This document shows, in pieces, positions 14,228-61,570 of a stretch of DNA of 64,000 nucleotides. Numbering within the stretch: position 1 is the stretch's first letter; each line of letters opens with the position of its first letter. The notes beneath the pieces are model-generated. The model ran no database searches. It was not told the origin of the DNA and was given only the letters and a program-made list of their open reading frames with translations. This stretch comes from Candidatus Heimdallarchaeum aukensis (GTDB lineage: Archaea > Asgardarchaeota > Heimdallarchaeia > Heimdallarchaeales > Heimdallarchaeaceae): the NCBI GenBank assembly GCA_021513695.1, contig CP084166.1:32001-96000 (forward strand), given 5' to 3'. A program made the translations under genes and the position numbers.

Positions 14228-14376
14228 TTTTGAGTTCACTTCAATTAGCACTAAAAACTATCTTTAATTTGTTATAAAAGTTTAGTTATTTATAATAGTA
14301 GTTCAATTAATTCTTTAAAATTCTAAATTTATCATGTTAAAGAGAACATATAATTGAAAAATAAAAAATCATAATT

Positions 14377-34543: not shown

Positions 34544-34709
34544 ACATGATTTTTAAACTTTAAATTTGACTGCTAAAAATGCAACTTTTCAAGGCTTGTA
34601 GTACATTTTATATATTAATTATCGTATAGTACTCTTTAGAGTTCTGGGATTGGAATTGGGGCTATTATTTCCTGGAGTAAGTAATTGAAAATTGAAAAGA
34701 AGTGTAAAA

Positions 34710-43900: not shown

Positions 43901-46900
43901 ACTGTATCTAGAATCGAAGTTAACACCTTCAAATCTGAAGAATATGGAGGGATCTATAAGTGGAGGAATTTTGGATTTAGGGCAATTATAAGCTGGACGA
44001 CAGCAATAGATCTCTATAATTGGACTTTGACTGTAGATTCTGGAGATTTAGACCAAGATGGGAAAGGAGAAATTATAGTAGGAGACTATGATAGTAATGT
44101 ATACATCTTTGAGCATATGACTAATAATACTTACAAACGTGCATTCAGGTCTCCTGATATGCTCCAGTATGTTCCAACTGATGAAACACCTTATAGTTGG
44201 GACAAATTTGGAGGATATGAAGGAGAGTTTAATCAGACAATTTGGAACCATGTGAGCTATTTGCTTGTGAATGCTGATAGTGATGGAGACGGTTATCTTG
44301 AGTTAGCTGCTCTTGCAGGAACAGTTCTGTATGTATTTGAAGACACGGGAATAGATGATACATACTCATACATGTATAGACTAGATGTTTTAAGGAGTTC
44401 AGCAGGAGAATACTTGAAAGAAAATGGTTTTCTTACACCTTCTGGTTTAACATGGGCTCAAGATTTAGATTTAGATGGTTATGGAGAGTTCATAATAGCC
44501 TTTGAAAAACAAGTATTTGTTTATGAACCTTATTCTGGAACACTCTATGAACTGTTTGGTAATGTTGCATCTGATGACCCTGAAACAGGACACTATAATA
44601 TTTTAGGAAATGCTAGGGTATTTGATAATATTACAATAAATGGAATGTTATGTTCTGACATTAATGAAAATGGAAGAGAAGAACTTTTCATTTATGGTTC
44701 TGTAGATGTTGATCTTCTTGATTATGAAGAAGGATTTATTGTAATGATTGAAAGCATCGATCTAGGCTATAAGATAATCTGGCAAGGACCAACAGAGTTA
44801 GTTAGTAGAAATATTATTACAGACCTTGAAATTGCTGACCAGGACTATGATGGTTTCAAAGAATTGATCATTGGTGGAAGTAAAGGTGTAAGTATTTACG
44901 AATTTGTTGGAGGAACAACTGCTAGCTTTACTCAAGAGGGACTAATTACAGGACACATGAATTATCCCCAAATGGCAGCTCATTCACTATTTGGAAAATA
45001 TAGTTACAATGATGATTATGACTATAGAAAACAGAGGTCTCATGATATAAGACAGATAGTTTACAGTGGAGGTTCAAATAATCATTCATATATTTCTGCT
45101 TTTAGTGAGTATAACGATACAATGGGTGCATATGCTATATATCAAAAAGTAAGTCATGACGGAGTAAATTGGTTATCGAGCAAACTTATAGCTTATTGGT
45201 ATTCTGGTGGTTACATAAGTTTATACTTCCCCTCACTTACACAGACAAGTAATTACTCTCTCTGGTTAGCAGTTACTTGTAAATTTTATAGCGTAGGTTT
45301 AGGTTCCGTATATGGCGTTCTTCTATATCGTTCAGATGATTATGGGGCAAATTGGGTATTCGTAGATGGATTGGCTTCAGAATATATAGAAGAAGGTTCA
45401 ACAAATCCGATATATTCACCCACAATATTCCCAACAGGACCTAATTCAATAGGTTTAGTGTATATTTTCAGACCAAATAACACTTATTCAGAATTATACT
45501 ATGGAGGGTTATTTGATAATGGAACAGTAATACCTCAAACAAAAATCGAGGGTTTTGATGATTTCATGTTCAACGGTGTTGATGTTGATTCAAAACCTGA
45601 TAATAGTGGAGTATATGCTGCTGCTTTTAGTGCTAAAAAGTATATTGAAGAAAAAGATGATTACGATATCTGGTACTGTGAATTTAATTCAACCTATGGA
45701 TTAATACTTGAACCAAGAAGACTATTTACTTCATTCTCTGTTGAGCATACTCCTAGTATTACTTATGTCCACAATGATGCCTATTCTAGACTTCTAACAT
45801 TTGATTCTTCTGGATTACAAAAGGCGATGACTTTATCATATGGAATGGTTTCTGATGATGGAATACATTGGTCTGACCCAGATATACTTGCTGAATATCC
45901 AGAGTATATTATTCCTCCAACTAAGTCAAACCCCTATCCAAAGATATCTGGTTTCTCTAACAGTTGGAGTATATATGATCTAGGTTTCAGAGCTCCAAAA
46001 GTTGCTCCAACCTACGATGGTAAATTCATATTACTTACAAAATTTGATGCAACTATTGTCTACTTCTCATTCCCAATCTTCTATATATATTATTATAATG
46101 ACTACGTAAGCCAAATTTATCCATTGAACTTTACAAGTTTTGTAGGGTTAAACACTGTAACAGATCTTGCTGTTGGAGACTCGGATAGAGATGGTAGAAA
46201 AGAGATAATGATAGCTGATGGATATCGAGCAGAAATGTTTGAGTTACTTAACACAAAAAATAGGAAGCAACTTTATACAAGCAAATGGTATAGTCCTGAG
46301 CATGATAATCCTGTTTCCGATGTAACTATGTTTGACACAAATGGTAACGGTTTTCCTGAACTAATTTACAGCGTTCAAGGCGAAGACATTTATGTATATG
46401 ATGTTGTAAATATTCATTTACCAAAGGCAGATTTACATAAATTACAATCAACTACTTTAGACTTATCTGGTGCTGGAAAGGTTATAACTAGAATTAAATC
46501 AGATCTAAATGATGACGGAATAAATGACATGGTGGTTTATTGCGAAGGAGGAAAAATGTATGGAATCTTAGGTAATAACCTGTCAATTTTATGGACTTTG
46601 GAAGATTCATTAGTTTCTCCAAATTGGTTCCTCGAAGAATCAATTTATCATGGTAATAGTGCTCTAATTTTTGTAAATAGTAATGGAACAACTTTGTGGA
46701 TAGACAAGAAAACAGGACAAGTTATAACCTCTCTTGATTTAGGTGAAGGAAGTTATACCTTAAATCCAATAGCAACAATGCTTAACTATACAAAGGATAA
46801 CACCATGGACATTGCCATTAAAGGTGATGCTCCTGGACATATTTATCTCTTTGACGGGAATAATGGTTCGCTTCTAAAGGATCTCACTTTCGACACTGAA

Positions 46901-48922
46901 AGATATGTGCAAGAAATTGAAGTAGCACATGAGCAAGGAGAGGATTATCTCATAGTTTCTTATTATTGGATAGAATATAAAGACCTAGGTGGCGGTATTA
47001 TTGTATGGATATTCCATGGAAAGATTACTGCTTACAACTTATCTTCGTCCTCACTAGATCAAATATGGGAAGTTAACTCTTACTATGCTGGAGGATTTAG
47101 AGGGGCAAATTTAATAGTAGATGATATTAATGGAGATGGAGATTCAGAAATATATGCATTTGGTGGTGGAATAAAATTACTTGATGCTAATGGTACTGAA
47201 TATTGGCGGGCTTACAACTATTTCTACTCTTATGATGCTGTTATATTTGATATAAATGATGATGGAATTAAAGATATAATTACTTCTTCAGGACAGAATA
47301 GTAAAGTTACAGCTCTTGATGGAAAAGATGGAAATGTTACTTGGAGTAATATACCCACCCAGAATATCTATGACTTAGAGATTAGTGACCCAGAAGGAGA
47401 AGATCCAATCCTTTATCTAGCTAACTCTAGAACAGATTATCAAGGAATAATTTTCTTAAACATTAGGAATGGTGGGTTCTTAGGTTACTATTACGACACA
47501 AGTAGTGATTTTCTAAATGATAACGCATTGGTACCAACCACTGTGGATTCAAAACCTGCAGTCTTAGCAGTTGATTATGACGCAGAGAAAATTTATCAAG
47601 TTCAAATAAATGAAACAGAACAAGTTTATGAGCATGATATTATACCTAAACTCTCCTTTGATCAAATACTTAAAACTGGAAAGAATGTTAACCCCGATAC
47701 TGTTATTTATGACAATCTAAACGACGATGAGTATGTAGAAATTTTCTATATACAAAATGGAAATGAGTCATTCATCTATAATCCAATCAAAGGTGAGTAT
47801 ATTGAAGAATATACTATCCCTACAAATGGGAGTGTTCTTTATGCTTTCAAAGCTAATTTATCTGACACTTCATTCTATGATTCTATTTTTATAATTACCT
47901 CTGAATACAAGGTAGGTGTTTTAGATCTCACTTCAATGAGTTATAAAAAGATATTGGACTTATCAGGTTATGTAGATGAAATTGCTTCATATGCTTACTT
48001 GGATATTACTGAAGATGTATTTATTTTAGGTTTCTTTGACTATACAAAGAAAGCATGGTACGTAGGCGCATGGAATATTAAAGGAGAAGAGGTATTCTCA
48101 CCTATTTACCAAGGTTCTCATAAACCAGATCAAATAAATGCAGGTAAATTACTTGATAAAGCCACGTATGAAGAAGGAGCAGCTTTTGTAATAACAAGCT
48201 TTGGTGCATACATATATGCTTATGATCTTAAGGGAACACAACTAGCTATGATTAAACAAGATGGACCTGCAGGTTTCACAGCTTTAGGAGAACTGAAAAA
48301 AGGATTAGGTTTTGAGTTTGTTTACTATAGGTTTGGAGATAAATTCTACTGTTATAACCTTAATACCATGACTGATGAATGGTCATCTACTTTAAGAAAT
48401 GACAATGAACTATTATCTATTGCTGTAGGATATATTGATAGCTCTACTAATCCTGATTATGCTAAAGTATTTGTTTCGCAGAGCGGTACAGGAATTTATG
48501 CATTTGATGATGTAGATAAAGAGTTATGGTATCACAGACATAATTCTTTTGTTGCTAAATTCCTTCATGTGATCAATGATGAAGCTTTAGGCAAGGTTCT
48601 TCAAGTTACAGATTATCATAGAACATTCTACATCAATGGAACAACTGCTGAAGTTTTATATGCTACAAGTACCTTGATGAAACAAGTTCTTTGGGTAGGA
48701 ACATGGTCTTCTCCAGACTCTGCATATGACTCAATAGCATTCTTTGATGGAAACTCATTCTATAGTCGAGGAATAGATGTTTCTTCTTCAGGAGCTTCAA
48801 CAGTGCAAGATCATATGGAAATCTCTGCAGAAAGGTTAACAAGACTTAGTACTCCAATAATTATAATGATGAGTGTAATGGTAACCATAATCACTCTTGT
48901 CTTCAGAAAAAATAAAAGTTAA
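40913..48922 (+). CDS. Giant surface protein (2,669 aa). Domains: signal peptide, multiple FG-GAP/VCBS-type propeller repeats, an Asp-box (BNR) region, PQQ/BamB-like repeats, C-terminal TM anchor.
   Basis: - Strong SD GAGGAGGTG at 40897-40905.
- FG-GAP-like units: LVVGDTNYNGLPDFVVGTREGAILVFEN, DSGDLDQDGKGEIIVGDYDSNVYIFE, LAVGDSDRDGRKEIMIADGY, VDDINGDGDSEIYAFGGG.
- Asp-box-like motifs: SHDGVNW, SDDYGANW, SDDGIHW (DNA about 45150-45875).
- PQQ-like unit: ALDGKDGNVTWS.
- C-terminal anchor: IIIMMSVMVTIITLVF. Confidence 0.85.
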   Translation: MHVKNNLIWKKVLILSLLAIMISSLVVGMPNAPFVNAETNSAQSLPDTISLEEAKQLMQQINEGNGGGNFASVEQQIIDPDLDLSRLLADNPNEYQQTYQPWKSQAAVRSITISDDYEFMAVGGGYLFDNEVQVYRWNPDINQYAKVWVSGDSVIKGDVIDVDFGDTDNNDFLEIIATSSDGYFYVFEQEHIFDPVTNTENRFDLVYTSPYLGQVWGVEVNDTDLDHLDDIIVVSWDHKVHVYEYWLHSGYPFNSEHWITYREKWQSHDTGYHLSSLVVGDTNYNGLPDFVVGTREGAILVFENNGTILDIQGQPYPLAQDNSYKLIYADNESIWRPIYSMDIGNLDNSPGDEVVIASFAFNGYILRYDDYKGYYLQKLIKDFESWTLKDFYPADHYVDNGTAGQNVYFQDPNYTGTTVEEPILQSNPAFIKGNYPYNTGAAQNNDTCYTHFESNSTHAAWEVYDFGADEEGTGNGNDAADILLKFKTLLFDYIYRDDFIISISPDYEHWVTVDPSLINTFNVAASTKYLRINVDPILIENKWNYFRYINVTVISNSTKDYNLLSIELPYVYQTVSTALSAEVGTLMTSTDTNEEVIHAILGTVDGRLVAFKYDATSDSFVLSWDSWVDDRFTVGINIWDIEQVKNLGSMPMIYGVTDLETGYQLRISPSPGSQISQVIFDYTLFNIDGDSPVTGEFAIVGGNGDVYYFDNGFDYDAAQTTQYFSSINDYATYTGNISIGAVEIDTDYSQEELLIGHYDPSLSNQYDDFEDDSSDVLPADIKIWTQVSSKYELNISLYSLETTGQLREILKSAQSIPSAEGEDIDGDGDVDIVVCIENLYLLWNIGTPSNPEFILDSDYFKDINEVKGRRQFLHPQFVEFEMDGIYDLSIGYSNRVGATYFDNYGTALAPKWEERKELVNNFDEEATINVYNFTRPLWIKYSEFDEYSTLLLEHNTGKSYYDKYYIYTMLDDRNGDMVYFMISNKIQTSFMVASNPTVSRIEVNTFKSEEYGGIYKWRNFGFRAIISWTTAIDLYNWTLTVDSGDLDQDGKGEIIVGDYDSNVYIFEHMTNNTYKRAFRSPDMLQYVPTDETPYSWDKFGGYEGEFNQTIWNHVSYLLVNADSDGDGYLELAALAGTVLYVFEDTGIDDTYSYMYRLDVLRSSAGEYLKENGFLTPSGLTWAQDLDLDGYGEFIIAFEKQVFVYEPYSGTLYELFGNVASDDPETGHYNILGNARVFDNITINGMLCSDINENGREELFIYGSVDVDLLDYEEGFIVMIESIDLGYKIIWQGPTELVSRNIITDLEIADQDYDGFKELIIGGSKGVSIYEFVGGTTASFTQEGLITGHMNYPQMAAHSLFGKYSYNDDYDYRKQRSHDIRQIVYSGGSNNHSYISAFSEYNDTMGAYAIYQKVSHDGVNWLSSKLIAYWYSGGYISLYFPSLTQTSNYSLWLAVTCKFYSVGLGSVYGVLLYRSDDYGANWVFVDGLASEYIEEGSTNPIYSPTIFPTGPNSIGLVYIFRPNNTYSELYYGGLFDNGTVIPQTKIEGFDDFMFNGVDVDSKPDNSGVYAAAFSAKKYIEEKDDYDIWYCEFNSTYGLILEPRRLFTSFSVEHTPSITYVHNDAYSRLLTFDSSGLQKAMTLSYGMVSDDGIHWSDPDILAEYPEYIIPPTKSNPYPKISGFSNSWSIYDLGFRAPKVAPTYDGKFILLTKFDATIVYFSFPIFYIYYYNDYVSQIYPLNFTSFVGLNTVTDLAVGDSDRDGRKEIMIADGYRAEMFELLNTKNRKQLYTSKWYSPEHDNPVSDVTMFDTNGNGFPELIYSVQGEDIYVYDVVNIHLPKADLHKLQSTTLDLSGAGKVITRIKSDLNDDGINDMVVYCEGGKMYGILGNNLSILWTLEDSLVSPNWFLEESIYHGNSALIFVNSNGTTLWIDKKTGQVITSLDLGEGSYTLNPIATMLNYTKDNTMDIAIKGDAPGHIYLFDGNNGSLLKDLTFDTERYVQEIEVAHEQGEDYLIVSYYWIEYKDLGGGIIVWIFHGKITAYNLSSSSLDQIWEVNSYYAGGFRGANLIVDDINGDGDSEIYAFGGGIKLLDANGTEYWRAYNYFYSYDAVIFDINDDGIKDIITSSGQNSKVTALDGKDGNVTWSNIPTQNIYDLEISDPEGEDPILYLANSRTDYQGIIFLNIRNGGFLGYYYDTSSDFLNDNALVPTTVDSKPAVLAVDYDAEKIYQVQINETEQVYEHDIIPKLSFDQILKTGKNVNPDTVIYDNLNDDEYVEIFYIQNGNESFIYNPIKGEYIEEYTIPTNGSVLYAFKANLSDTSFYDSIFIITSEYKVGVLDLTSMSYKKILDLSGYVDEIASYAYLDITEDVFILGFFDYTKKAWYVGAWNIKGEEVFSPIYQGSHKPDQINAGKLLDKATYEEGAAFVITSFGAYIYAYDLKGTQLAMIKQDGPAGFTALGELKKGLGFEFVYYRFGDKFYCYNLNTMTDEWSSTLRNDNELLSIAVGYIDSSTNPDYAKVFVSQSGTGIYAFDDVDKELWYHRHNSFVAKFLHVINDEALGKVLQVTDYHRTFYINGTTAEVLYATSTLMKQVLWVGTWSSPDSAYDSIAFFDGNSFYSRGIDVSSSGASTVQDHMEISAERLTRLSTPIIIMMSVMVTIITLVFRKNKS

Positions 48923-49113: not shown

Positions 49114-49791
49114 ATGTTGATGGTACCTACTCAGATGAAAAAAATAACCATACTAGGGACAACTGGTAGTGGAAAGACCACCTTTTTAGAAGCTTTATTT
49201 GGTGATTTTGAAAAAAATGATGTTAAAAGAGATTTGAGTAAAGAAAAAAGTTCAAATTGTGATTTTATTCCTTTGAAAAATAATACATTCAAAGAAAGTA
49301 CAACAACAATAAGTTTGAATGTCATTAATTCATTGCTTTATTTGACTACATTTAATCGATTAGGTTTAGAAAAGTTCGAAAATAGAGACAATATTGACTT
49401 TGAAAATGTTGAAGAGATTTATCAAATAGTTTTCAATGATCCTGCAGGACAAGAAAGATTTGATTTCATGCAAGAGATAGCAGTAAGAGGAGCAAACCTA
49501 GTAATTATAATGGCTGATGGCACAAATATCTCGAGTTTAGAAAAAGTAGTTCATTATATTTCGTTGGTAAAAATTGAAGAAAATCTATCTAAAAAGAAAA
49601 TACCGACTATTATTTTCATCAACAAATCTGATTTAAAGGAAAAGGGTGTTTATTTAGGAAAAAATGTAGCTGAGCAGATTATTTATTCAAGCATTCTTGA
49701 TGAGAAATTACTTATTTATGAAACTTCTAACCTTAAGAGAGAAACATATGATGAACCTTTGAGGATTATTTTTAACTATCTTTCATACTAA
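49114..49791 (+). CDS. Small GTPase (Rab/Ras-like) with an extended switch-I region.
   Basis: - G1: GTTGSGKTT.
- G3: DPAGQERF (Rab/Ras-type DxxGQE).
- G4: NKSD.
- About 75 aa separate G1 and G3, which is longer than in canonical Ras-family proteins.
- GGGGGT lies 7 nt upstream of the start. Confidence 0.8.
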   Translation: MLMVPTQMKKITILGTTGSGKTTFLEALFGDFEKNDVKRDLSKEKSSNCDFIPLKNNTFKESTTTISLNVINSLLYLTTFNRLGLEKFENRDNIDFENVEEIYQIVFNDPAGQERFDFMQEIAVRGANLVIIMADGTNISSLEKVVHYISLVKIEENLSKKKIPTIIFINKSDLKEKGVYLGKNVAEQIIYSSILDEKLLIYETSNLKRETYDEPLRIIFNYLSY

Positions 49792-49843: not shown

Positions 49844-50818
49844 ATGAGCGTAAAAATAACCTCAGAATATATAGAGCTGCTGAATAAAGCAGTTGCAAGA
49901 GAATTACAAGTTTCTGTTCAATATTTTCTACAACACGCTAAAATTGAAAAAATAATGAGAAAAGTTAAAGCTGAAAATATTTTACTTGATTCCACAACTT
50001 ACGACCAGATAGGTCAGATTTTAAAGAAACTAGCAATAGAAGAAATGAAACATGCAGGATCAATCGTTGAGAGAATTTATTATTTGGGAGGCAAGGCAAC
50101 AACTAAAGCTTTTAAACCTAAAATAGGAGAAAATATGCAAGAATTTATGAAATATGGCTTTGAAGCTGAAGAAGAAGCTTTAGAATTATATCGTGAAATA
50201 ATCCGCGAGGCAGGTAAATTAGGAGATTATGATACTAAAGAACTCTTTAGGAAAATCTATAGAGAGGAAGAAGAACATCTTTATACGTTTCAAGAATATT
50301 TAACAATTAATATTAGTGAACCTGGAGAGACAGCACCAAAGTCCGAATGGAGAAAAGTTTTTGACGACGAATACTTTGCTCTATTAAACAAAGCCTTAGC
50401 TTCAGAACTGTCTGCTATTATTCAGTACATAACCCAACATGAAAAAGCGAGTGCAATCAATCTTAGGAAAAAAGAAACGCCTTTAGAAGTAATTACCAAT
50501 ACAAACAAAGCGCAAGTTATTAGTAACATGTTAAAGAAAATCTTTATGCAAGAAATGGAACATTACGAAAAGATTTCTGAAAGAATATACATGTTGGATG
50601 GAGAATGTACATTGGATCCTGATCCTTTGCCAAAAGTTGGTGAGAGCGTAGAAGATTTCTTGAAACTGGGTCATCAAGCTGAAGATGAAGCTATTGTTCT
50701 TTATCGTAAAATCATAGAAGAAGCTACTAAGAAGGGAGATATAACTACTAAGAAGATGTTTGAAGAAATATTGATGGAAGAAGAAGAACATTACTGGATG
50801 TTTGATGACTACTTGTAA
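49844..50818 (+). CDS. Tandem ferritin-like (bacterioferritin/rubrerythrin-type) di-iron protein with two four-helix-bundle halves in one chain.
   Basis: - First half: ELQVSVQY, EEMKHAGS, EAEEEALE, EEEEHLYTF.
- Second half: ELSAIIQY, QEMEHYEK, AEDEAIV, EEEEHYWMF.
- Together this gives two complete E..ExxH..E..ExxH ligand sets. Confidence 0.75.
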   Translation: MSVKITSEYIELLNKAVARELQVSVQYFLQHAKIEKIMRKVKAENILLDSTTYDQIGQILKKLAIEEMKHAGSIVERIYYLGGKATTKAFKPKIGENMQEFMKYGFEAEEEALELYREIIREAGKLGDYDTKELFRKIYREEEEHLYTFQEYLTINISEPGETAPKSEWRKVFDDEYFALLNKALASELSAIIQYITQHEKASAINLRKKETPLEVITNTNKAQVISNMLKKIFMQEMEHYEKISERIYMLDGECTLDPDPLPKVGESVEDFLKLGHQAEDEAIVLYRKIIEEATKKGDITTKKMFEEILMEEEEHYWMFDDYL

Positions 50819-50888: not shown

Positions 50889-51254
50889 ATGAGTAATATA
50901 AAGAAACTCACTTTTTCTGTAAATCAAAGTAGAAGAGTGATTCGTGCAGCAGAAAACAAGAAAATTGAACCTAAAGAATTGCTTAAAGGTTATGAGCTTA
51001 TGGTAAATACCCTCTTTAAGCATTGGAAAGAAGAATATGCTGAAACTATGGAAATTGACTTTCAAACATTTTTTTATGAAATAATGAAATATGCTGAAGT
51101 TAAATATAGATTAGAAAAGACCAAGTCTGATCTAAAAAAAATAAAAGAAATGTCAGAGTTGTTAAACGAAGCCATTGAAGAATATAAAGAAGATTATACA
51201 ATTTTGAAGGCTATAGAAGATAGTTTGAGAAATATGGGTGTTGAGTGGGTTTAA
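50889..51254 (+). CDS. Hypothetical helical protein, first gene of the recombinase islet.
   Basis: The ORF has K/E-rich coiled-coil character. The next ATG starts immediately after its stop codon (TAA 51252-51254, ATG 51255-51257), so the genes abut with no overlap. No family recognised. Confidence 0.4.
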   Translation: MSNIKKLTFSVNQSRRVIRAAENKKIEPKELLKGYELMVNTLFKHWKEEYAETMEIDFQTFFYEIMKYAEVKYRLEKTKSDLKKIKEMSELLNEAIEEYKEDYTILKAIEDSLRNMGVEWV

Positions 51255-51704
51255 ATGAAATTGAATATTACCCAATTTAAGATTAAATTCAAGGATAAAA
51301 TAGAAATTGAAAATGAAGAGAAATTTGCAGATAATATAATCTATTATTATCCGTTTTTTCAATCTTTAGATAAAAATGAGTTAGAGAAGTCTCTTCAATC
51401 AATAAGAGAAGAAAAAAAAGTCTTGGAGAAAAAATTCAAAAAAATAAAAGAAGAGTTCTCAGATATACTGGGAGAGATAGCAAAAATACGTTTCACAGCT
51501 AATGAATTATATAATCAAAATAGGGTTATAGCTCTGACTACAGGGTTATTAAGACATAAGCTGATAGATTTACATAATAATAATGTTGAACTTCCTTTTG
51601 ATTATGAGGAAACACTTAAGTTTGTAGAACATTTTATTTATAGATATTTAACTAAAAAAGAAGATAAAAGACTTGTTGCCCAGCTACCTTTTAAAGAGAT
51701 TTGA
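51255..51704 (+). CDS. Hypothetical helical protein.
   Basis: The ORF is contiguous with the previous gene and is coiled-coil-like. No family recognised. Confidence 0.4.
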   Translation: MKLNITQFKIKFKDKIEIENEEKFADNIIYYYPFFQSLDKNELEKSLQSIREEKKVLEKKFKKIKEEFSDILGEIAKIRFTANELYNQNRVIALTTGLLRHKLIDLHNNNVELPFDYEETLKFVEHFIYRYLTKKEDKRLVAQLPFKEI

Positions 51705-51783
51705 GAAAATTCACACTTTTTCTATTTGGAATAGTAATACTAAGTTTTATATTAAAAATAGAGAACCTTATTGCAAGGTCAAA

Positions 51784-52506
51784 ATGATTCGTTGTGTTAT
51801 TTATGCTCGTACATCTACAGCTGATCAAACTAGTGGGTTAGAAACACAGATTGAAGATGTAACGGCTAAGATATATCAAGCTGGAGATAGAGCAATAGTA
51901 AGAATAATTAAAGATCAAGATATTGCAGGCGATAGTGACCCTGAATATAGACCCGGATTTAAAGAAATCCTAGAAATGGCAAAGAATAATCAATTTGATG
52001 AGTTATGGTCTCAATCAAGAGACAGATTGTCAAGAGACGTTGATATTTTGGGTTATATTCGCATTCTTCTAAAAAAGAATAATGTTTCTATAGTTTGTTT
52101 AGATGATGAAGAAAACAAGGTTATTTCTAGAGTTAAAGACCTATTTGGTGAAATGGAACTTCAAAAATATAGAGAAAAAAGATACAAAGGAATGATGAGA
52201 AGACTAAAGGAACAAAAAGTAATGTCAAGACCTCCTTTTGGTTATAAAGTGAATGAGGAAGGAAAATTAGTTGTAGATGAGGAAAAAGCAGCAATAATTA
52301 GAAGGCTCTTTTCTGAATTTGACAACCCTTTGGCTTCTTTGAAAAGTTTAAGTTTGAAATATAATTTATCTGTCTCTACACTGCGAAATATTCGTTCAAA
52401 CCCAATTTATCGAACTGGTGAAGTACGTTGGGCAGGAAAAATTGCTTATTATGTTGATCCTATTGTCCCTGAAAATAAAGATCAAAAACTTAAGTTAGAC
52501 GACTAA
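51784..52506 (+). CDS. Serine recombinase: a resolvase-type catalytic domain plus a partial 'recombinase' domain. It is short, about 240 aa.
   Basis: - MIRCVIYARTSTADQ matches the YxRxSTxxQ catalytic-serine motif right after the ATG at 51784.
- RDRLSRD motif is present.
- RPPFGYKVNEEGKLVVDEEKAAIIRRLF resembles the large-serine-recombinase domain.
- A TATA-like TTTATATTAAAAAT lies about 35 nt upstream. Confidence 0.8.
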   Translation: MIRCVIYARTSTADQTSGLETQIEDVTAKIYQAGDRAIVRIIKDQDIAGDSDPEYRPGFKEILEMAKNNQFDELWSQSRDRLSRDVDILGYIRILLKKNNVSIVCLDDEENKVISRVKDLFGEMELQKYREKRYKGMMRRLKEQKVMSRPPFGYKVNEEGKLVVDEEKAAIIRRLFSEFDNPLASLKSLSLKYNLSVSTLRNIRSNPIYRTGEVRWAGKIAYYVDPIVPENKDQKLKLDD

Positions 52507-56776: not shown

Positions 56777-56912
56777 AAATTCTATTTATTCTACTTTTTT
56801 CAAAAATTTTTGGGTAAAAAATATTTAAGTTGTATAACATTCGGTTGCCTTTGAACAAATAATTAAATATGTTTTAACTATAATACTATATAGAAATTTC
56901 AGAGATGATTTT

Positions 56913-58769
56913 ATGAATAAAATAAATATTATATTAACCTATTTAGTGGTTTCTAGTTTTCTTATCCTCTCTGGATCTGTTTATGCTGCCGATGTTTCTG
57001 GTTCAACAATTGAAGCTTCACCTTCTGATATTTATGAGTATCAGATAACTAGTATTACTGTTACTTCAAAGAATGGAGTAGGTACTGCACTTGGAGGAGT
57101 AACTGTAAATATCTCTGCTCAAGAAGGTTCCTTTGTTGAAAATGAGATGAAGTACATAATCTTAACTACAAATGACAATGGTATTGCTTCCGCTGATTGG
57201 AAAGCTCCTGAAGCTAAGAGTGCAGTAGAAGCTAAAGAAGTTACAATAACTGCTGTATTCACTTCTGGTAGTGATACAGCTACAAAAGAATTAAATGTAA
57301 CTGTTCATCCTCTTTCTTTTGATACAAGTACTATAACTATAAGCCCAGATCCAGTTTACGAGACACAGAATTCAACTATTGAGATAACTGCAAAAGGTAC
57401 ATACGGAACCATTGCAGAAGCAAATGTTCATCTAACTTGTGACGATGGAGTGTTTCCAGATTCTGATACTTTCGAGATAGATGTCCAAACAGATTCAGAT
57501 GGAAAAGTTCAAGTTATCTGGAATGCTGATTTAACTACATTAGTTTCTGAACTAAACTATGTTAACTTTACTGCTACAGTAACTTATAGCGGTTCTACAG
57601 CCACTAAAGACTTGACTGGAACTATTTATGTTAATGAACTAGATTTGAGTAGTTCAACAATGGTTGCGTCAAGTACGGATGTAGGAGGAGGGACACATGT
57701 TTCTATTGTTGTTACTGCAGAGGGAGCTTTAGGAGTGATTTCTAACGCAAGAGTAGAGTTAGACGCTCTTGATGGTAAATTCTCCAATAACGAACAAGAT
57801 ATTACAGGATATACTAACTCTTCAGGAATGTATGAGACAGAATGGATAGCTCCTGATGTTTCAAATGCTATTGACATTATAATCTCAGGAACAGTTTCTG
57901 TTGATAACACTCTCGCAACTAAGGATCTAGATGATATAACAATTACTGTTAATCCTATAGTTCACAACTTCACAATAAGTTTAGATGCAAATGCTACAGA
58001 AATAACAGCTGGAGAACCTGTAGAATTAACTGTAACTTTGACTAATGAATTAGGTTATACTGTAGAAGATGCAGAGATTACTTTCAATGCTATGGAAGGA
58101 GAATTTGTAGGTTTTGATGCTCTAACTGCTAAGATTAACAGTTCATCTGAAGGAATTGCTTCTGTAGTATGGAATACAACTGATTTATCTCCACCAATAC
58201 CTAATGGACAGGATTATCCTATAACTATTAATATAGTTAAAGAATTCTATAATTCTGAAGAAGATTCAATAGATATACATGTTAATCCTATTATCCTTAA
58301 ACTAAGCTCTAGCACTACTCCAGATAAGACAACTATAACTCAAGGAGAAAATGTTACATTTACTGTTTTTGTTAGTGCTGGAGAACAAGGAGTAGAAGGA
58401 GCAACTGTAACTATAACCGCTCTAGCAGGTACTTTTGCCAGCAGTGGGAATCAAATTACTTCACTAGAAACAAATTCCACTGGATATGTTACTTTTGTAT
58501 GGATAACAGAAGATATGACAGTAACAACTGCAAAGAACTATACATTTACTATCGATGCAGCCCTTCCAGGATATGATTCATCAGAACAAGAAACAGTTAC
58601 TATATTAGTTAATCCAGTTGATACAGGAGGAGCAGAACCTACACAAACTACTACTCCTACAGGAGGATTGTCTACAATGACTAAACTAGGTATCCTTCTT
58701 GGAGCACTTGGAGGAGTGGTTCTATTAGGAGGTTTAGGTTACTTCTTAATTAGTAGACGAGGTATATAA
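56913..58769 (+). CDS. Secreted surface protein made of about six Ig-like (Big_1/invasin-type) domains, with a Thr/Pro linker and a C-terminal TM anchor.
   Basis: - Signal peptide: ILTYLVVSSFLILSGSVYA.
- Repeating units of about 100 aa: S.i.asp..v...q.s.I.vta....G..v.gA.V.l....G.f.......TdsdG.a...W.AP....
- C-terminus: PTQTTTPTGG + LGILLGALGGVVLLGGLGYFLI. Confidence 0.7.
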   Translation: MNKINIILTYLVVSSFLILSGSVYAADVSGSTIEASPSDIYEYQITSITVTSKNGVGTALGGVTVNISAQEGSFVENEMKYIILTTNDNGIASADWKAPEAKSAVEAKEVTITAVFTSGSDTATKELNVTVHPLSFDTSTITISPDPVYETQNSTIEITAKGTYGTIAEANVHLTCDDGVFPDSDTFEIDVQTDSDGKVQVIWNADLTTLVSELNYVNFTATVTYSGSTATKDLTGTIYVNELDLSSSTMVASSTDVGGGTHVSIVVTAEGALGVISNARVELDALDGKFSNNEQDITGYTNSSGMYETEWIAPDVSNAIDIIISGTVSVDNTLATKDLDDITITVNPIVHNFTISLDANATEITAGEPVELTVTLTNELGYTVEDAEITFNAMEGEFVGFDALTAKINSSSEGIASVVWNTTDLSPPIPNGQDYPITINIVKEFYNSEEDSIDIHVNPIILKLSSSTTPDKTTITQGENVTFTVFVSAGEQGVEGATVTITALAGTFASSGNQITSLETNSTGYVTFVWITEDMTVTTAKNYTFTIDAALPGYDSSEQETVTILVNPVDTGGAEPTQTTTPTGGLSTMTKLGILLGALGGVVLLGGLGYFLISRRGI

Positions 58770-58770
58770 T

Positions 58771-61494
58771 ATGTTTAGGAAGAAGAGAGGAGTTTCTCCT
58801 GTAATTGCAGTTGTTCTGATACTTGGTCTTACCTTAGCTGCAACTGCAATTGTTTTTCTAGTTGTACTTCCAATGGTAAATCAAAGAAATGCTCCTGAGT
58901 TATACATTGATGAGACTTCAGCACCTTTGTTTATGGATTACGATAATGATGGAAAATGTGACTATATAACTGTCCAAGTTGGAAATATCGGTGGGAGTGC
59001 GTTTAATGTTACTAATATAACGATCGTAGCTTCCAAAGATAGTTCGTCCAACTTCTACACTTGGGAGTTAATGGATAATGTAAATGGGACAATAGGTGTA
59101 AATGATCGTGTTCTATTAAAGATGAGGGCTGCTGTAGATGATACTGATGAAATAGATGATGGTTCAAGTCTAATTTTAACACTAATAAATGACCAATATA
59201 TTGTAGGTCTAGAACTTGGGACAATTACTGTTGAACAAGGAGAACCACTATCTATTGAATTTACTGATTCTTCAGGAGATCCTGTTGTTGGTTCTAATAT
59301 TTATTTCTACTATTCCACAGGAGAATTTGCTTACACAGGGGAACCAACATCTGTTAGTGGTGTTTCAAACACTTATCTATTTCCAGGGACTTACTATGCA
59401 AAAGCTCAATCTGGAATGCAATTCTACACCACAGATGTTTTTATTCATCCAGGAACACCCCAATTACATTTAGAGATGTCTGGAGGAACTTTAACTGTTA
59501 AAGTTAAATCAGGTACAACACCTTTAAGTGGTGTAAGAACTTATTTGTATGATACCTATAGCCATTATTTGAATAAATACTCTGATACTAATGTTGATGG
59601 ACTAGCTACTTATTCTCTTGATGATGGAGTGTATAAGATCAGAGCAGATGTTTCTGGAATAGTCTATTATTCAGAAAATATAAACTTCCCAAATACAACT
59701 TATATAGAAATTGACACAGGAGGAGGTACTGTTTATGCTCACGTAATTGATGGAGGAAATAATCCAATAGTCAACACTCGTGTCTATCTTTTCACCTCAA
59801 GTGGAAGCTACACTGGTAAATACGGTAACACCAATGCTACAGGGTATGCTGAATTTGCTGCAGTTTCAGGAGGAACTAATTATAAGTTTAGAGTAGATTA
59901 CTTGGCTTATAGAATCTGGAGTCAAACCTTTGGAGCTTCAGATGGGGCAGTTATTGATGTTAATGTAGGAGGAGGAACAATATATGTCAATGTAACTGAT
60001 GGTGACGGCAATCCAATAAAGAACACTCGTACATATCTCTTTACTTCAAGCGGAAGTTATACTGGTAAATACTCGAATACAAATACAAGTGGAATAGCCA
60101 CTTACAGCTCTATAGCTGCTGGAGATTACAAGATTAGAATTGACTATCTTGCTCAAAGATTCTGGAGCCCAGTTTTCACTGCTTCAAATGGATTAATAGT
60201 TAATGCATCTATAGGAGGAGGAACACTTTATGGAAATATTACTGTGGCTGGAAATGCTTTAGTTAACACTCGTGTTTATCTTTTCACTTCAAGTGGAAGT
60301 TATACCGGTAAATATGGAAATACAAATGCTTCTGGAATAGTAACATTTGTTGGAATAGGCACTTCTAACTATAAGTTAAGGGTAGATTACCAAGCAGATC
60401 GTCATTGGTCAGATGTTTTCTATTTCAATGAAACAATGGTTTATCACTTTGAACTAGGTGGAGGAACAGTTTATGCCAATGTCACTGCTGGAGGGGTACC
60501 AGTTGTCAATACTAGAGTCTATGTATTCACTGATAGCGGAAGTTATACAGGAACTTATGCAAACACTAATGCTTCAGGAATAGCAACATTCAACACATTA
60601 AGCAGTGGAGACTACAAATTCAGAGTTGACTACCTCGCAAAAAGATTCTGGAGTGATGTATTCACTGCCAGTGATGGTTTAGTTGTAGATGTTGATTTAG
60701 GTGGAGGAACAATATATGTCCATTTGACTAATACCTATGGTGTAGATATTGCTAATGTACGTCTCTATCTCTTCACTTCAAGTGGAAGCTACACAGGTAA
60801 GTATACAAACACAAATGCTACGGGTTGGGGAGTTTTTGCAGGAATAGGAGAATCAGACTATAAAGTACGTGCAGACTATCTAGCAAAAAGATACTGGTCA
60901 AACGTATTTACTGCAACCGACGGATTAAATGTAGATTTCAATATAGGTGGAGGAATAGTTTGGTTACATGTGTTTGACGGAAGTGGGACAAATATAAGCG
61001 GACCAAGAGCTTATCTCTTTACTGAGAGCGGAAGTTATACTGGAATCTACAGAAACCTGGATGCTAATGGATATCTGAACTTTACTGGAATAGGTGATGG
61101 TAACTTCAAATGGAGAGTCGACTATCTTGCAAAAAGATTCTGGTCTGATGTTTTCTCTGCGACAAACGGTACAACTTTAGAATTCAACATCGGTGGAGGA
61201 ACAATATACGTTCATCTAACAGTTAATGGTGCTGATGTTAATAACGGAAGAATATACTTGTTTACAGATACTGGTAGTTATACTGGAAAATATGCAAATA
61301 CAAACTCTACAGGTTGGGCAGTGTTCTATGGAATTGGAGCAGGAGATTATAAGTTGAGATATGATTATGATGGAACACGTTATTGGAAGAATTTCTCCGC
61401 AGATGCAGATTTACAGGTAGGGTTTGCTATTGTAACCACAATGACCCTTTCTGTATTAACAGTTCAACCTTCTAAGTCAAAAGAAAATTATTAA
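58771..61494 (+). CDS. Protein with an archaeal class III (type IV pilin-like) signal peptide, followed by about nine tandem 81-83-aa beta-sandwich (CarboxypepD_reg/Cna-B-like) repeats.
   Basis: - MFRKKRGVSPVIAVVLILGLTLAATAIVFLVV matches the archaeal pilin/DUF1628 N-terminus ([KR]G-[VA]SPVIA..L).
- Repeat consensus: GGGTIYV.VTDG.GNPI.NTRVYLFTSSGSYTGKY.NTNATG.A.F..I..GDYK.RVDYLAKRFWSDVFTASDGL.VD..
- The ATG lies 1 nt after the upstream stop. Confidence 0.8.
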   Translation: MFRKKRGVSPVIAVVLILGLTLAATAIVFLVVLPMVNQRNAPELYIDETSAPLFMDYDNDGKCDYITVQVGNIGGSAFNVTNITIVASKDSSSNFYTWELMDNVNGTIGVNDRVLLKMRAAVDDTDEIDDGSSLILTLINDQYIVGLELGTITVEQGEPLSIEFTDSSGDPVVGSNIYFYYSTGEFAYTGEPTSVSGVSNTYLFPGTYYAKAQSGMQFYTTDVFIHPGTPQLHLEMSGGTLTVKVKSGTTPLSGVRTYLYDTYSHYLNKYSDTNVDGLATYSLDDGVYKIRADVSGIVYYSENINFPNTTYIEIDTGGGTVYAHVIDGGNNPIVNTRVYLFTSSGSYTGKYGNTNATGYAEFAAVSGGTNYKFRVDYLAYRIWSQTFGASDGAVIDVNVGGGTIYVNVTDGDGNPIKNTRTYLFTSSGSYTGKYSNTNTSGIATYSSIAAGDYKIRIDYLAQRFWSPVFTASNGLIVNASIGGGTLYGNITVAGNALVNTRVYLFTSSGSYTGKYGNTNASGIVTFVGIGTSNYKLRVDYQADRHWSDVFYFNETMVYHFELGGGTVYANVTAGGVPVVNTRVYVFTDSGSYTGTYANTNASGIATFNTLSSGDYKFRVDYLAKRFWSDVFTASDGLVVDVDLGGGTIYVHLTNTYGVDIANVRLYLFTSSGSYTGKYTNTNATGWGVFAGIGESDYKVRADYLAKRYWSNVFTATDGLNVDFNIGGGIVWLHVFDGSGTNISGPRAYLFTESGSYTGIYRNLDANGYLNFTGIGDGNFKWRVDYLAKRFWSDVFSATNGTTLEFNIGGGTIYVHLTVNGADVNNGRIYLFTDTGSYTGKYANTNSTGWAVFYGIGAGDYKLRYDYDGTRYWKNFSADADLQVGFAIVTTMTLSVLTVQPSKSKENY
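59479..61440 (+). repeat. Tandem coding repeats with a period of 240-249 nt: one diverged copy starting at 59479, then seven well-conserved copies.
   Basis: GG(A/T)GGAGG(A/T)AC(A/T) repeat starts fall at 59479, 59719, 59968, 60214, 60457, 60700, 60946 and 61192 (hand-indexed). Confidence 0.85.
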
Positions 61495-61570
61495 TTATCT
61501 CTTTCTTTTTTCTTTTTTCCTTTTGCAATTCTATTTATAAGAAATTGTTTGTTATAAATTCTCTTAAAAA

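What the first reader, a model, noticed from the sequence alone, without database searches (positions are those of the whole stretch)
56913..61494. Two-gene surface operon: a Big-domain protein plus a pilin-signal protein carrying about nine tandem beta-sandwich repeats
- The second gene starts 1 nt after the stop of the first.
- Its product begins with a textbook archaeal class III signal, KRG|VSPVIAVVLILGLTLAA. This is the substrate motif of the prepilin peptidase PibD/EppA.
- It is 907 aa long, far larger than typical archaeal pilins in my general knowledge. It consists almost entirely of repeats that each carry a conserved YLFTSSGSYTGKY..TNATG and DYLAKRFWSDVF core.
- Seven copies remain recognisable at the DNA level with a 243-249 nt period, which implies recent expansion or concerted evolution.
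- The partner protein has six Ig-like domains and a conventional C-terminal anchor.
- Together they could form a pilus-tip or fibre adhesin, or a sheath. No pilus assembly ATPase or PilC-like gene is present in the window.
Basis: partly seen in the sequence, partly recalled or inferred. Interest (0 to 1): 0.6.

Follow-up and report, generated by a model that had tools for sequence, protein, structure and literature searches.

The report
Asgard modular pilin with anchored partner
A Heimdallarchaeum (Asgard archaeon) gene pair encodes a membrane-anchored rod of five Ig-like domains and a 907-residue protein that joins a genuine archaeal pilin head to a rod of nine beta-sandwich domains; it is an old, stable surface-protein cassette of a known general kind, not a recently expanded repeat.

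Summary
The two ORFs exist as described: 56913-58769 (618 aa) and 58771-61494 (907 aa), 1 nt apart. The source is a Heimdallarchaeum. The closest orthologue (93% identity) is already annotated "type IV pilin".

**P2**
- Residues 1-157 form a complete archaeal pilin module. It has a KRG|VSPV class III signal and scores above the Pfam Pilin_N cutoff.
- The AF2 model (pLDDT 92) has a helix plus a beta-sandwich, and its best structural matches are archaellins and archaeal type IV pilins.
- Nine CarboxypepD_reg-like domains follow, seven clear and two degenerate.

- P1 has five MG/Ig-like domains, not six, and no Pfam Big hit above cutoff.
- The repeats are not recent. DNA identity averages 59%, dS is saturated, and each repeat is closer to its positional counterpart in other species (65-78%) than to its neighbours (47-50%).
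- Large pilin-headed proteins are common: 76 of 118 relatives exceed 200 aa.

**Context**
- The P1-P2 pair is conserved across Heimdallarchaeaceae.
- No assembly ATPase, platform protein or prepilin peptidase lies within 10 kb of any orthologue or of any short Heimdall pilin examined.

**Best reading (0.55):** P2 is a modular minor or tip pilin displaying a roughly 30 nm rod, co-expressed with an anchored partner. **Main rival (0.3):** a non-filament surface coat.

The parts
56777..56912 (+). AT-rich intergenic region shared with the divergent amidohydrolase gene. It is the presumed promoter region of the P1-P2 unit and carries a GAGATGA Shine-Dalgarno-like element 5-11 nt before the ATG.
   Evidence: Sequence read. 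Promoter function is inferred, not tested.
56913..58769 (+). P1 gene (618 aa): a Sec-type signal, five MG/Ig-like beta-sandwich domains, a Thr/Pro-rich linker and a C-terminal TM anchor.
   Evidence: ORF. AF2 model pLDDT 84.6. Domain HMM finds exactly 5 copies. Foldseek matches the MG-domain arrays of C3 and alpha2-macroglobulin. Orthologues appear.
56913..56987 (+). P1 signal peptide (aa 1-25, ...SGSVYA|AD).
   Evidence: Model helix 3-19 followed by a low-pLDDT segment. The AxA-type site is read from the sequence. Cleavage is inferred.
56991..58616 (+). Five tandem ~108 aa beta-sandwich domains of P1: D1 56991-57311, D2 57312-57641, D3 57642-57956, D4 57957-58289, D5 58290-58616. They are 16-34% identical to one another.
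58617..58766 (+). P1 disordered Thr/Pro-rich linker (aa 569-588), TM helix (aa 589-613) and basic tail SRRGI.
   Evidence: pLDDT below 50 for aa 572-593 and helix 589-613. No PGF-CTERM or other sorting-signal family found in NCBIfam.
58752..58770 (+). Gene junction. A GAGGT Shine-Dalgarno-like element lies inside the P1 3' end, followed by the TAA stop, one base, then the P2 ATG.
   Evidence: Translational coupling is inferred.
58771..61494 (+). P2 gene (907 aa): a modular archaeal type IV pilin-like protein.
58771..58791 (+). Class III signal leader MFRKKRG (aa 1-7). The predicted prepilin-peptidase cut is between G7 and V8.
   Evidence: Pilin_N and TIGR02537 score above cutoff. The [KR][GA][VI]SPV motif is present in 25 of 25 orthologues. 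Cleavage itself was not tested.
58792..58887 (+). Hydrophobic N-terminal alpha-helix of the pilin module (aa 8-39).
   Evidence: AF2 helix 10-39. It is about 68% identical to the N-terminus of a 135 aa stand-alone Heimdall pilin.
58888..59241 (+). Pilin head: an eight-strand beta-sandwich (aa 40-157).
58936..58962 (+). Invariant DYDNDGKCD loop (aa 56-64), a DxDxDGxxD motif like the Ca2+-binding loop of FG-GAP repeats.
   Evidence: D56, Y57, D58, D60, G61 and D64 are invariant in 20 sequences. The profile cross-hits FG-GAP repeat proteins through this segment. Metal binding is inferred.
59242..59718 (+). Two degenerate beta-sandwich repeats: R1 (aa 158-236) and R2 (aa 237-316).
   Evidence: Repeat HMM gives 32 bits for R2 in the window. 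R1 is detected in orthologues and aligned.
59719..61431 (+). Seven canonical 81-83 aa CarboxypepD_reg-like repeats, R3-R9, with boundaries at 59719, 59968, 60214, 60457, 60700, 60946 and 61192.
   Evidence: CarboxypepD_reg scores 56.8 bits against a 32.3 cutoff, with 6 matched stretches. A single repeat covers profile positions 2-78 of 82.
61432..61491 (+). Moderately hydrophobic C-terminal tail (aa 888-907). Its sequence varies among orthologues.
   Evidence: Function unknown.
61497..61526 (+). T-rich tract (about 3 copies of TTTCTTT) immediately after the P2 stop. It looks like an archaeal oligo-T terminator.
   Evidence: Function is inferred.
58652..58988 (+). A 337 nt patch with 1 mismatch to Ca. 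H. endolithica, against 12.9% divergence across the two genes. It spans the P1 anchor, the junction and P2 aa 1-73.
   Evidence: RNA fold z = -1.26. No consistent synonymous constraint in deeper orthologues.

Best explanation
The locus is a conserved two-gene surface-protein cassette of Heimdallarchaeaceae.

P2 is a modular archaeal type IV pilin.
- A seven-residue class III leader is removed by a prepilin peptidase encoded elsewhere (inferred).
- The mature protein keeps a hydrophobic N-terminal helix and a beta-sandwich pilin head with a conserved DxDxDGxxD loop (shown by model and fold comparison).
- Through this module it is extracted from the membrane and inserted into a type IV filament built mainly of the ~135-150 aa stand-alone pilins of the same family, whose N-terminal helices are nearly identical (inferred).
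- A 750-residue appendage cannot be packed at every subunit. P2 would therefore be a low-abundance or tip subunit.
- It would present a rigid rod of nine transthyretin-like beta-sandwich domains. The rod length of about 30 nm is estimated from about 3.5 nm per domain and was not measured.
- The rod would serve as an adhesive or spacing fibril.

P1 is exported by Sec and stays in the membrane through its C-terminal helix. Its five MG/Ig-like domains would stand up from the surface on a flexible Thr/Pro stalk. It is co-transcribed, and in Heimdallarchaeum probably translationally coupled, so the two are made together and probably act together at the surface (inferred).

The repeat array is ancient and its length is conserved.
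For: Pilin identity of the N-terminus:
- Pilin_N scores 37.3 against 25.2 and TIGR02537 scores 21.4 against 20.
- The AF2 model has pLDDT 91.8, with helix 10-39 and 8 strands.
- The Foldseek top 11 hits are archaellin filament subunits aligned over the full length.

Selection on the cleavage motif:
- [KR][GA][VI]SPV is present in 25 of 25 orthologues, and S9 and P10 are invariant.

Potential filament partners:
- 132-157 aa stand-alone pilins of Heimdallarchaeota match the module at E 1e-10 to 1e-17.
- The one read in full, P0137, has a near-identical N-terminal helix.

The architecture recurs:
- Of 59 large relatives, 46 carry Pilin_N, 11 CarboxypepD_reg, 9 Big_1 and 5 MG4.
- Bacterial precedent: modular pilins polymerise through the pilin module and are modelled at the filament tip (PMC8179133).

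The cassette is conserved:
- P1 followed by P2 was found in every lineage checked, with gaps of 1 to about 216 nt.
- The most distant partner is a 4-domain P1 homologue (hhalign probability 100%, E 6e-47).

Purifying selection:
- dN/dS is 0.08 for P2 and 0.11 for P1.

The array is stable:
-.

Literature:
- Asgard genomes mostly show core filament machinery in one place and candidate pilins elsewhere (bioRxiv 10.64898/2026.04.22.720090).
Against: - No ATPase, platform protein or A24 peptidase was found in the 64 kb window, nor within 10 kb of P2 orthologues or of seven short Heimdall pilins.
- I could not check whether this genome encodes them at all.
- The cited preprint says type IV filament systems are rare in Asgard archaea and that only 'a few' Heimdallarchaea have a simple system.
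- Cleavage, polymerisation, location in a filament and any P1-P2 contact are all inferred.
- A C-terminally anchored partner fits a cell-coat role at least as well as a pilus role.
- No ligand-binding or lectin module was identified. The distal repeat R9 evolves only moderately faster than the rest (dN/dS 0.21).
Confidence: 0.55

Rival explanations
1. P1 and P2 form a non-filament surface coat. After class III processing, P2 stays in the membrane through its N-terminal helix. This resembles the class-III-signal sugar-binding proteins of Sulfolobus, or a very short pseudopilus stub. P1 is held by its C-terminal helix. Together the two rods would form a glycosylated canopy about 20-30 nm thick, standing in for an S-layer. 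The conserved number of domains would set the thickness of that canopy.
For: - No assembly machinery lies near any orthologue or any short pilin.
- P1 has a classical envelope-protein layout: a signal, Ig-like domains, a Thr/Pro stalk and a TM anchor.
- The domain number (9) is kept even in lineages where the inner repeats were homogenised (P0016 up to 96% identity, P0024 up to 83%). This suggests selection on length.
- N-glycosylation sequons are somewhat frequent: 19 in P2 and 12 in P1.
- Filament systems are reported as scarce in Asgard archaea.
Against: - P2 keeps a complete, strongly conserved pilin head with an invariant loop, not only a signal and anchor. From my own knowledge, not checked here, the Sulfolobus class-III sugar-binding proteins lack such a head.
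- Short pilins with the same helix exist in the same clade.
- No lattice-forming features were identified.
Confidence: 0.3
2. The N-terminus acts as an ordinary uncleaved signal anchor. P2 would then be a type II membrane protein with no link to type IV filament biology.
For: - The hydrophobic helix could anchor the protein by itself.
- No peptidase was located (all context calls).
Against: - K/R at -2, G/A at -1, S at +2 and P at +3 are conserved in 25 of 25 orthologues and in 118 of 133 more distant relatives. A plain anchor does not need this.
- The module has the fold of filament subunits.
Confidence: 0.07
3. The repeat array is a recently expanded or concertedly evolving contingency region whose copy number varies between strains.
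For: - The spacing is a regular 243-249 nt.
- Distant lineages do show homogenised inner repeats (P0016 up to 96%, P0027 up to 79%).
Against: - In the window, repeat DNA identity is 51-66% and dS is 0.8 to saturated.
- Each repeat is closer to its positional counterpart in other species (diagonal 65-78%) than to its neighbours (47-50%).
- Full-length orthologues of 903-933 aa share the same domain count.
- The window protein and its 93% relative are both exactly 907 aa. The window protein was recovered identically on short-read contigs from two other runs.
Confidence: 0.03
4. P2 is an enzyme or enzyme regulator, as the name 'carboxypeptidase regulatory-like' might suggest.
For: Only the Pfam family name.
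Against: - No catalytic domain is found in Pfam, NCBIfam or PDB sequence searches.
- The whole protein is accounted for by the pilin module plus nine beta-sandwiches.
Confidence: 0.01

Closest known systems
Bacterial modular type IV pilins, such as Streptococcus sanguinis PilB and PilC (Raynaud et al. 2021, PMC8179133)
   Same: - A class III signal and a small pilin module at the N-terminus.
- A bulky non-pilin module grafted on C-terminally.
- Multi-repeat examples exist, for instance an 860 aa protein with 12 repeats.
- Expected to be minor or tip subunits.
   Different: - The pilin module here is the archaeal type (Pilin_N, with an archaellin-like beta-sandwich head), not the bacterial IPR012902 alpha/beta pilin.
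- The passenger is a long rod of transthyretin-like domains with no recognised ligand-binding module.
- No experimental evidence exists.
- The gene is not in a pilus locus.
Archaeal type IV pilins and archaellins (Pfam PF07790 Pilin_N; structures 5tfy, 8fk7, 8fjs, 8q30, 9eq7)
   Same: - The signal motif.
- The N-terminal helix plus beta-sandwich head.
- Family score above the curated cutoff.
   Different: - Classical subunits are about 130-200 aa, whereas P2 carries an extra 750 aa.
- Sequence identity to solved subunits is only 8-17%.
Large Ig-fold 'adhesin-like' proteins that accompany archaeal type IV filament loci (bioRxiv 10.64898/2026.04.22.720090)
   Same: Multi-Ig or beta-sandwich surface proteins associated with pilins. 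Some are class-III-signal proteins with extra domains.
   Different: Those are described inside machinery loci of Thermoproteota and Euryarchaeota. The P1-P2 cassette is stand-alone and restricted to Heimdallarchaeaceae.
Class-III-signal sugar-binding proteins of the Sulfolobus bindosome
   Same: A large functional protein exported with a class III signal. The system is mentioned.
   Different: - From my own knowledge, not checked here, those proteins have a substrate-binding domain and no pilin head.
- P2 has a full pilin head and no binding-protein domain.
MG-domain arrays of alpha2-macroglobulin and complement C3 (for P1)
   Same: A tandem string of ~100 aa MG-type beta-sandwiches. Foldseek E is 1e-17 to 1e-15, and there is a sub-threshold Pfam MG4 hit.
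   Different: - No thioester, bait or CUB domains, and only one Cys.
- TM-scores are only about 0.2, because just the individual domains match.
- P1 is a simple anchored rod.
N-terminal CarboxypepD_reg repeat arrays of bacterial Rhs/YD-repeat proteins (Desulfobacterota)
   Same: The same repeat subtype, 9-13 copies, 30-35% identity over about 80% of P2.
   Different: These are bacterial. They have no pilin module and carry an Rhs core or toxin C-terminally.

Membership tests
Archaeal type IV pilin / Pilin_N (PF07790, TIGR02537) | An N-terminal class III signal: a short charged leader ending in [KR][GA], followed by a hydrophobic stretch. | tested here: met
   MFRKKRG|VSPVIAVVLILGLTLAATAIVFLVVLP. 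PF07790 scores 37.3 bits (cutoff 25.2) and TIGR02537 scores 21.4 (cutoff 20). The motif is in 25 of 25 orthologues.
Archaeal type IV pilin / Pilin_N (PF07790, TIGR02537) | An N-terminal alpha-helix followed by a beta-sandwich head, as in solved archaeal filament subunits. | tested here: met
Archaeal type IV pilin / Pilin_N (PF07790, TIGR02537) | The leader is removed by an A24-family prepilin peptidase (PibD, EppA or FlaK). | not testable with these tools
   No peptidase gene was found in the window or in any fetched locus. The rest of the genome could not be searched.
Archaeal type IV pilin / Pilin_N (PF07790, TIGR02537) | Polymerised into a filament by a dedicated ATPase and platform protein. 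| tested here: inconclusive
   No T2SSE or T2SSF gene lies within 10 kb of P2 orthologues or of 7 short Heimdall pilins. The literature reports core machinery elsewhere in some Heimdallarchaea.
Modular type IV pilin (sensu Raynaud et al. 2021) | A pilin module fused to an additional module that is not specific to filament biology. | tested here: met
   The pilin module is aa 1-157. Nine CarboxypepD_reg-like domains cover aa 158-887.
Modular type IV pilin (sensu Raynaud et al. 2021) | Present as a minor subunit in filaments, with the extra module mediating a filament function. | not testable with these tools
   This requires purified filaments or imaging.
CarboxypepD_reg (PF13620) repeat protein | A match to the family model above the gathering score. 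| tested here: met
   The whole protein scores 56.8 bits against 32.3, with 6 matched stretches. Single repeats score 24-26 bits but cover profile positions 2-78 of 82.
   P1 has no family above cutoff. aBig_2 scores 12.2 against 27 and MG4 scores 22.5 against 24.7. The fold is nonetheless Ig/MG-like.
Alpha2-macroglobulin / complement thioester proteins (for P1) | A thioester domain with a CGEQ motif in addition to the MG domains. | tested here: not met
   P1 consists of 5 MG-like domains plus an anchor only, with one Cys and no further domain.
Archaeosortase substrates (PGF-CTERM and related) | A C-terminal tripartite sorting signal recognised by NCBIfam models. | tested here: not met
   There is no NCBIfam hit at E <= 1 apart from an unrelated weak domain. 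The C-terminus has no PGF motif.

The most novel reading that the evidence does not exclude
The P1-P2 cassette encodes the main surface appendage or coat of Heimdallarchaeaceae. P2 would be a length-calibrated rod of nine domains, delivered by type IV filament machinery that is unlinked in the genome. P1 would be its anchored partner. This structure would mediate contact with syntrophic partners. It would be a lineage-specific envelope solution in the archaeal group closest to eukaryotes. The shared repeat type with Desulfobacterota Rhs proteins might hint at exchange between partners.
Probability: 0.15. Interest if true: 0.65.

Novelty: new member of a known kind. Interest (0 to 1): 0.35.

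Why it matters
The cell surface of Asgard archaea is almost unknown. Type IV filament systems are reported as sparse in this group, with pilins unlinked from machinery.

A strongly conserved cassette under purifying selection gives concrete, testable candidates for what Heimdallarchaeial cells display on their surface. It pairs a real pilin module carrying a nine-domain rod with an anchored five-domain partner. These candidates suit antibody, cryo-ET or proteomic work on enrichment cultures.

The protein class itself is already recognised: modular pilins, and archaeal Pilin_N proteins with Ig-like passengers. The closest orthologue is already annotated as a type IV pilin. The finding therefore extends a known kind rather than revealing a new one.

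Tried and rejected
- **Tandem Repeats Finder on the DNA:** no array with a period of about 245 nt.
- **Rfam and tRNA scans of the window:** nothing found.
- **PDB sequence searches:** no significant match with full P2 or with the repeat profile (best E 0.042, NOMO2).
- **Search for machinery next to pilin genes:** none found across three P2 orthologue loci and seven short-pilin loci.
- **Unannotated neighbours as candidate prepilin peptidases:** a ~233-241 aa gene lies downstream of the 132-142 aa pilins, and a ~266-277 aa gene lies divergent from the ~150 aa pilins. They have no A24 hit, and the two that were translated are soluble proteins.
- **RNA-structure explanation of the 337 nt ultra-conserved patch:** z = -1.26, not significant. 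Deeper orthologues show no consistent synonymous constraint.
- **Literature:** Wu et al. 2022 (PMC8813620) does not mention pili, pilins, archaella, S-layer, surface or adhesion. The archaeal filament preprint has no supplementary tables held as text.
- **Genome-wide check for PibD, PilB or PilC in Ca. H. endolithica:** I could not run this.
- **FlaFind/PilFind:** not available. Pfam and NCBIfam models served as the formal test.
- **Structure of one repeat or of full-length P2:** The rod length is therefore an estimate.
Full report
**1. What is there**

The window has about 30% GC. It encodes Ras/Arf-family small GTPases and archaeal housekeeping genes.

ORF listing confirms P1 at 56913-58769 (+, 618 aa) and P2 at 58771-61494 (+, 907 aa). 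A single base separates them, and a GAGGT Shine-Dalgarno-like element sits inside the end of P1. A T-rich tract follows the P2 stop.

The exact P2 protein occurs on contigs from runs SRR15988958 and SRR15988959. The nearest database relative is 93% identical and also 907 aa. It is annotated "type IV pilin" in the complete genome of Candidatus Heimdallarchaeum endolithica, CP084167.1. The window therefore comes from a sister Heimdallarchaeum lineage, an Asgard archaeon.

**2. The P2 N-terminus is a whole pilin module, not just a signal**

- Pfam Pilin_N scores 37.3 bits (cutoff 25.2) over residues 6-90, and NCBIfam TIGR02537 scores 21.4 (cutoff 20).
- All 25 orthologues inspected carry [KR][GA][VI]SPV 4-18 residues from the start.
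- In a 20-sequence alignment S9, P10, V11, A13, L20, V32, P34, D56, Y57, D58, D60, G61, D64 and W98 are invariant.
- An AlphaFold2 model of residues 1-160 is confident (pLDDT 91.8). It shows a helix at 10-39 followed by an eight-strand beta-sandwich.
- With Foldseek against the PDB, the eleven best matches are all archaellin filament subunits, aligned over essentially the full length (E 2e-5 to 5e-4).
- The invariant DYDNDGxCD loop lies between two strands. It makes the profile cross-hit FG-GAP repeat proteins. From established knowledge of FG-GAP repeats, this motif is a Ca2+-binding loop. Metal binding here is inferred.

**3. The rest of P2**

- A repeat HMM built from the seven clear units finds eight units in the window protein. 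In orthologues it also finds a ninth, weaker unit at residues ~158-236. The nine units align with one another.
- The protein is therefore a pilin module (1-157), nine beta-sandwich domains (158-887) and a 20-residue tail.
- CarboxypepD_reg is the best family. It scores 56.8 bits against 32.3, and a single repeat spans profile positions 2-78 of 82.
- Big_1 also passes its cutoff on the same segments.
- No enzyme family matches, and no PDB sequence matches significantly.

**4. The repeats are old**

The seven-copy DNA family with 243-249 nt spacing is real, but TRF does not report it.

| Measure | Value |
|---|---|
| Whole-unit DNA identity | 51-66% (mean 59%) |
| Amino-acid identity between repeats | mean 54% |
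| dS between repeats | 0.8 to saturated |
| Same-position identity, window vs orthologues at 73%, 63% and 58% overall identity | 78%, 71%, 65% |
| Different-position identity in the same comparisons | 47-50% |

- The array therefore predates these lineages and has not been homogenised in them.
- The domain count is the same in nearly all full-length orthologues of 903-933 aa.
- More distant lineages do show within-protein homogenisation: P0016 up to 96%, P0024 up to 83%, P0027 up to 79%. They still end up with about nine domains. This points to selection on rod length.

**5. P1**

- The AlphaFold2 model (pLDDT 84.6) has a signal helix, an all-beta region at 32-567, a disordered Thr/Pro segment and a TM helix at 589-613.
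- The beta region divides into five ~108 aa domains, not six. They are 16-34% identical to one another, and a domain HMM finds exactly five.
- No Pfam family passes its cutoff.
- Foldseek matches the tandem MG domains of complement C3 and alpha2-macroglobulin. TM-scores are low because only individual domains superpose.
- There is no thioester domain and no archaeosortase-type sorting signal.

**6. Conservation and context**

- P1 homologues are few (10 protein clusters; 4 species representatives in the genome collection) and all are Heimdallarchaeal.
- In every lineage examined a P1 homologue lies directly upstream of the P2 homologue on the same strand. The gaps are 1 nt (Heimdallarchaeum), 78, 82, 212 and about 216 nt, while the flanking genes differ.
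- The most distant partner is a four-domain P1 homologue (hhalign probability 100%, E 6e-47).
- Both genes are under purifying selection: dN/dS is 0.08 and 0.11 against Ca. H. endolithica. The distal repeat R9 is the fastest-evolving part of P2 at 0.21.
- No filament ATPase, platform protein or A24 peptidase is in the window or within 10 kb of the orthologues.

**7. Relatives of the pilin module**

- A profile of the module finds many 132-157 aa stand-alone "type IV pilins" of Heimdallarchaeota and other Asgard archaea (E 1e-10 to 1e-17).
- The one read in full (P0137, 135 aa) has an N-terminus that nearly matches P2: KRGVSPVIATVLLIALVTAAAAIVFLVVIPM against KRGVSPVIAVVLILGLTLAATAIVFLVVLPM.
- These short pilins are also stand-alone, in conserved housekeeping neighbourhoods without machinery.
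- The exhaustive profile search gives 1,270 proteins at E <= 0.001.
- Of 118 representatives with the class III motif, 42 are <=200 aa, 34 are 201-400, 21 are 401-800 and 21 are >800 aa.
- Among 59 large ones, 46 hit Pilin_N, 11 CarboxypepD_reg, 9 Big_1 and 5 MG4.
- A pilin head carrying beta-sandwich arrays is therefore a recurrent archaeal architecture, and P2's size is not exceptional within it.

**8. Literature**

- A 2026 preprint on archaeal type IV filament systems states that such systems are widespread except in Asgard archaea. It also states that a few Heimdallarchaea have a simple core system, and that in most Asgard genomes the core machinery and candidate pilins are found separately (bioRxiv 10.64898/2026.04.22.720090). 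This matches what I see.
- Bacterial modular pilins give the closest functional precedent. They have a pilin module plus a grafted module, polymerise through the pilin module, and are modelled at the filament tip (PMC8179133).
- The genome paper for Heimdallarchaeum does not discuss surface structures.

**9. Interpretation**

*Shown:*
- Gene structure.
- The pilin module, by family score and predicted fold.
- Nine transthyretin-like domains.
- The five-domain anchored partner.
- Conservation of the pair.
- The antiquity of the repeats.

*Inferred:*
- Cleavage at G7|V8.
- Insertion into filaments made of the short pilins.
- A minor or tip position.
- A rod length of about 30 nm.
- Cooperation with P1.

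The main rival is a non-filament coat. It is favoured by the absence of linked machinery and by P1's envelope-protein layout. It is disfavoured by the retention of a complete, highly conserved pilin head. I put the modular-pilin reading at 0.55, the coat at 0.30, and the others together below 0.15.

**10. Verdict**

The class is known and the closest orthologue is already annotated as a type IV pilin. What is new is the description of a Heimdallarchaeaceae-specific two-gene cassette with a conserved nine-domain rod. Interest is moderate (0.35), mainly because so little is known about Asgard cell surfaces.

Noticed in passing
window 58652-58988: A 337 nt stretch has a single mismatch to Ca. H. 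endolithica, against 12.9% divergence over the two genes. dS is 0 for P2 codons 1-39 and 0.024 for the P1 anchor, compared with about 0.55 gene-wide. It spans the P1 anchor, the junction and P2 residues 1-73. The RNA fold is not significant, and deeper orthologues show no consistent synonymous constraint. A recent recombination patch between co-occurring lineages seems most likely.
   Followed up: partly
P0016, P0024, P0026, P0027 (distant P2 orthologues; L007 for P0024): In these lineages the inner repeats are homogenised within the protein (up to 96% identity in P0016), unlike in the window's clade. The total nonetheless stays at about nine domains, which suggests selection on rod length.
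   Followed up: partly
window 58936-58962 (P2 aa 56-64): An invariant DYDNDGxCD loop in the pilin head resembles the DxDxDGxxD Ca2+-binding loop of FG-GAP repeats. The module profile cross-hits FG-GAP proteins through this segment.
   Followed up: partly
P0019-P0060 (bacterial hits to P2): Rhs/YD-repeat proteins, mostly from Desulfobacterota, carry 9-13 copies of the same repeat subtype N-terminal to the Rhs core. They are 30-35% identical over about 80% of P2. Common descent versus transfer was not examined.
   Followed up: no
window 49844-50818 (+): A 324 aa protein has two ferritin-like stretches. It appears to be the double-ferritin-fold type recently described from Ca. Heimdallarchaeum endolithica (bioRxiv 10.64898/2026.08.25.747088, seen).
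   Followed up: no
window 34692-40913 (+) and 40913-48922 (+): Two abutting giant ORFs of 2,073 aa (TSP3 repeats) and 2,669 aa (FG-GAP repeats) share base 40913. The GC content is locally raised to 0.37-0.40. They are probably further surface proteins.
   Followed up: no
window 259-3147 (+) and 3498-6614 (-): Two large proteins combine a right-handed beta-helix/NosD region with TSP3 repeats. They are also likely to be surface proteins.
   Followed up: no
window 49114-49791 (+) and 13262-14251 (-): These are Ras/Arf-family small GTPases, typical of Asgard archaea. An Arf-like GTPase also recurs near the short-pilin loci (L008, L010, L012).
   Followed up: no
window 50889-52506 (+): Two small ORFs with no family match are followed by a serine recombinase (Resolvase, 51673-52506) whose start overlaps the preceding ORF. 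This may be a small mobile element.
   Followed up: no
window 26203-28710 (+): An 835 aa ORF has no Pfam family at E <= 0.001. It overlaps the start of the downstream aspartate dehydrogenase gene by 4 nt.
   Followed up: no
L008, L010-L013 (132-142 aa pilins); L014, L015, L020, L021 (~150 aa pilins): Two groups of short Heimdall pilins each sit in their own conserved neighbourhood. One lies between succinyl-CoA ligase and GDPD/AdoHcyase. The other lies between DUF389 and a Band_7 protein near the A-type ATPase. Each group has conserved unannotated neighbours of unknown function.
   Followed up: partly
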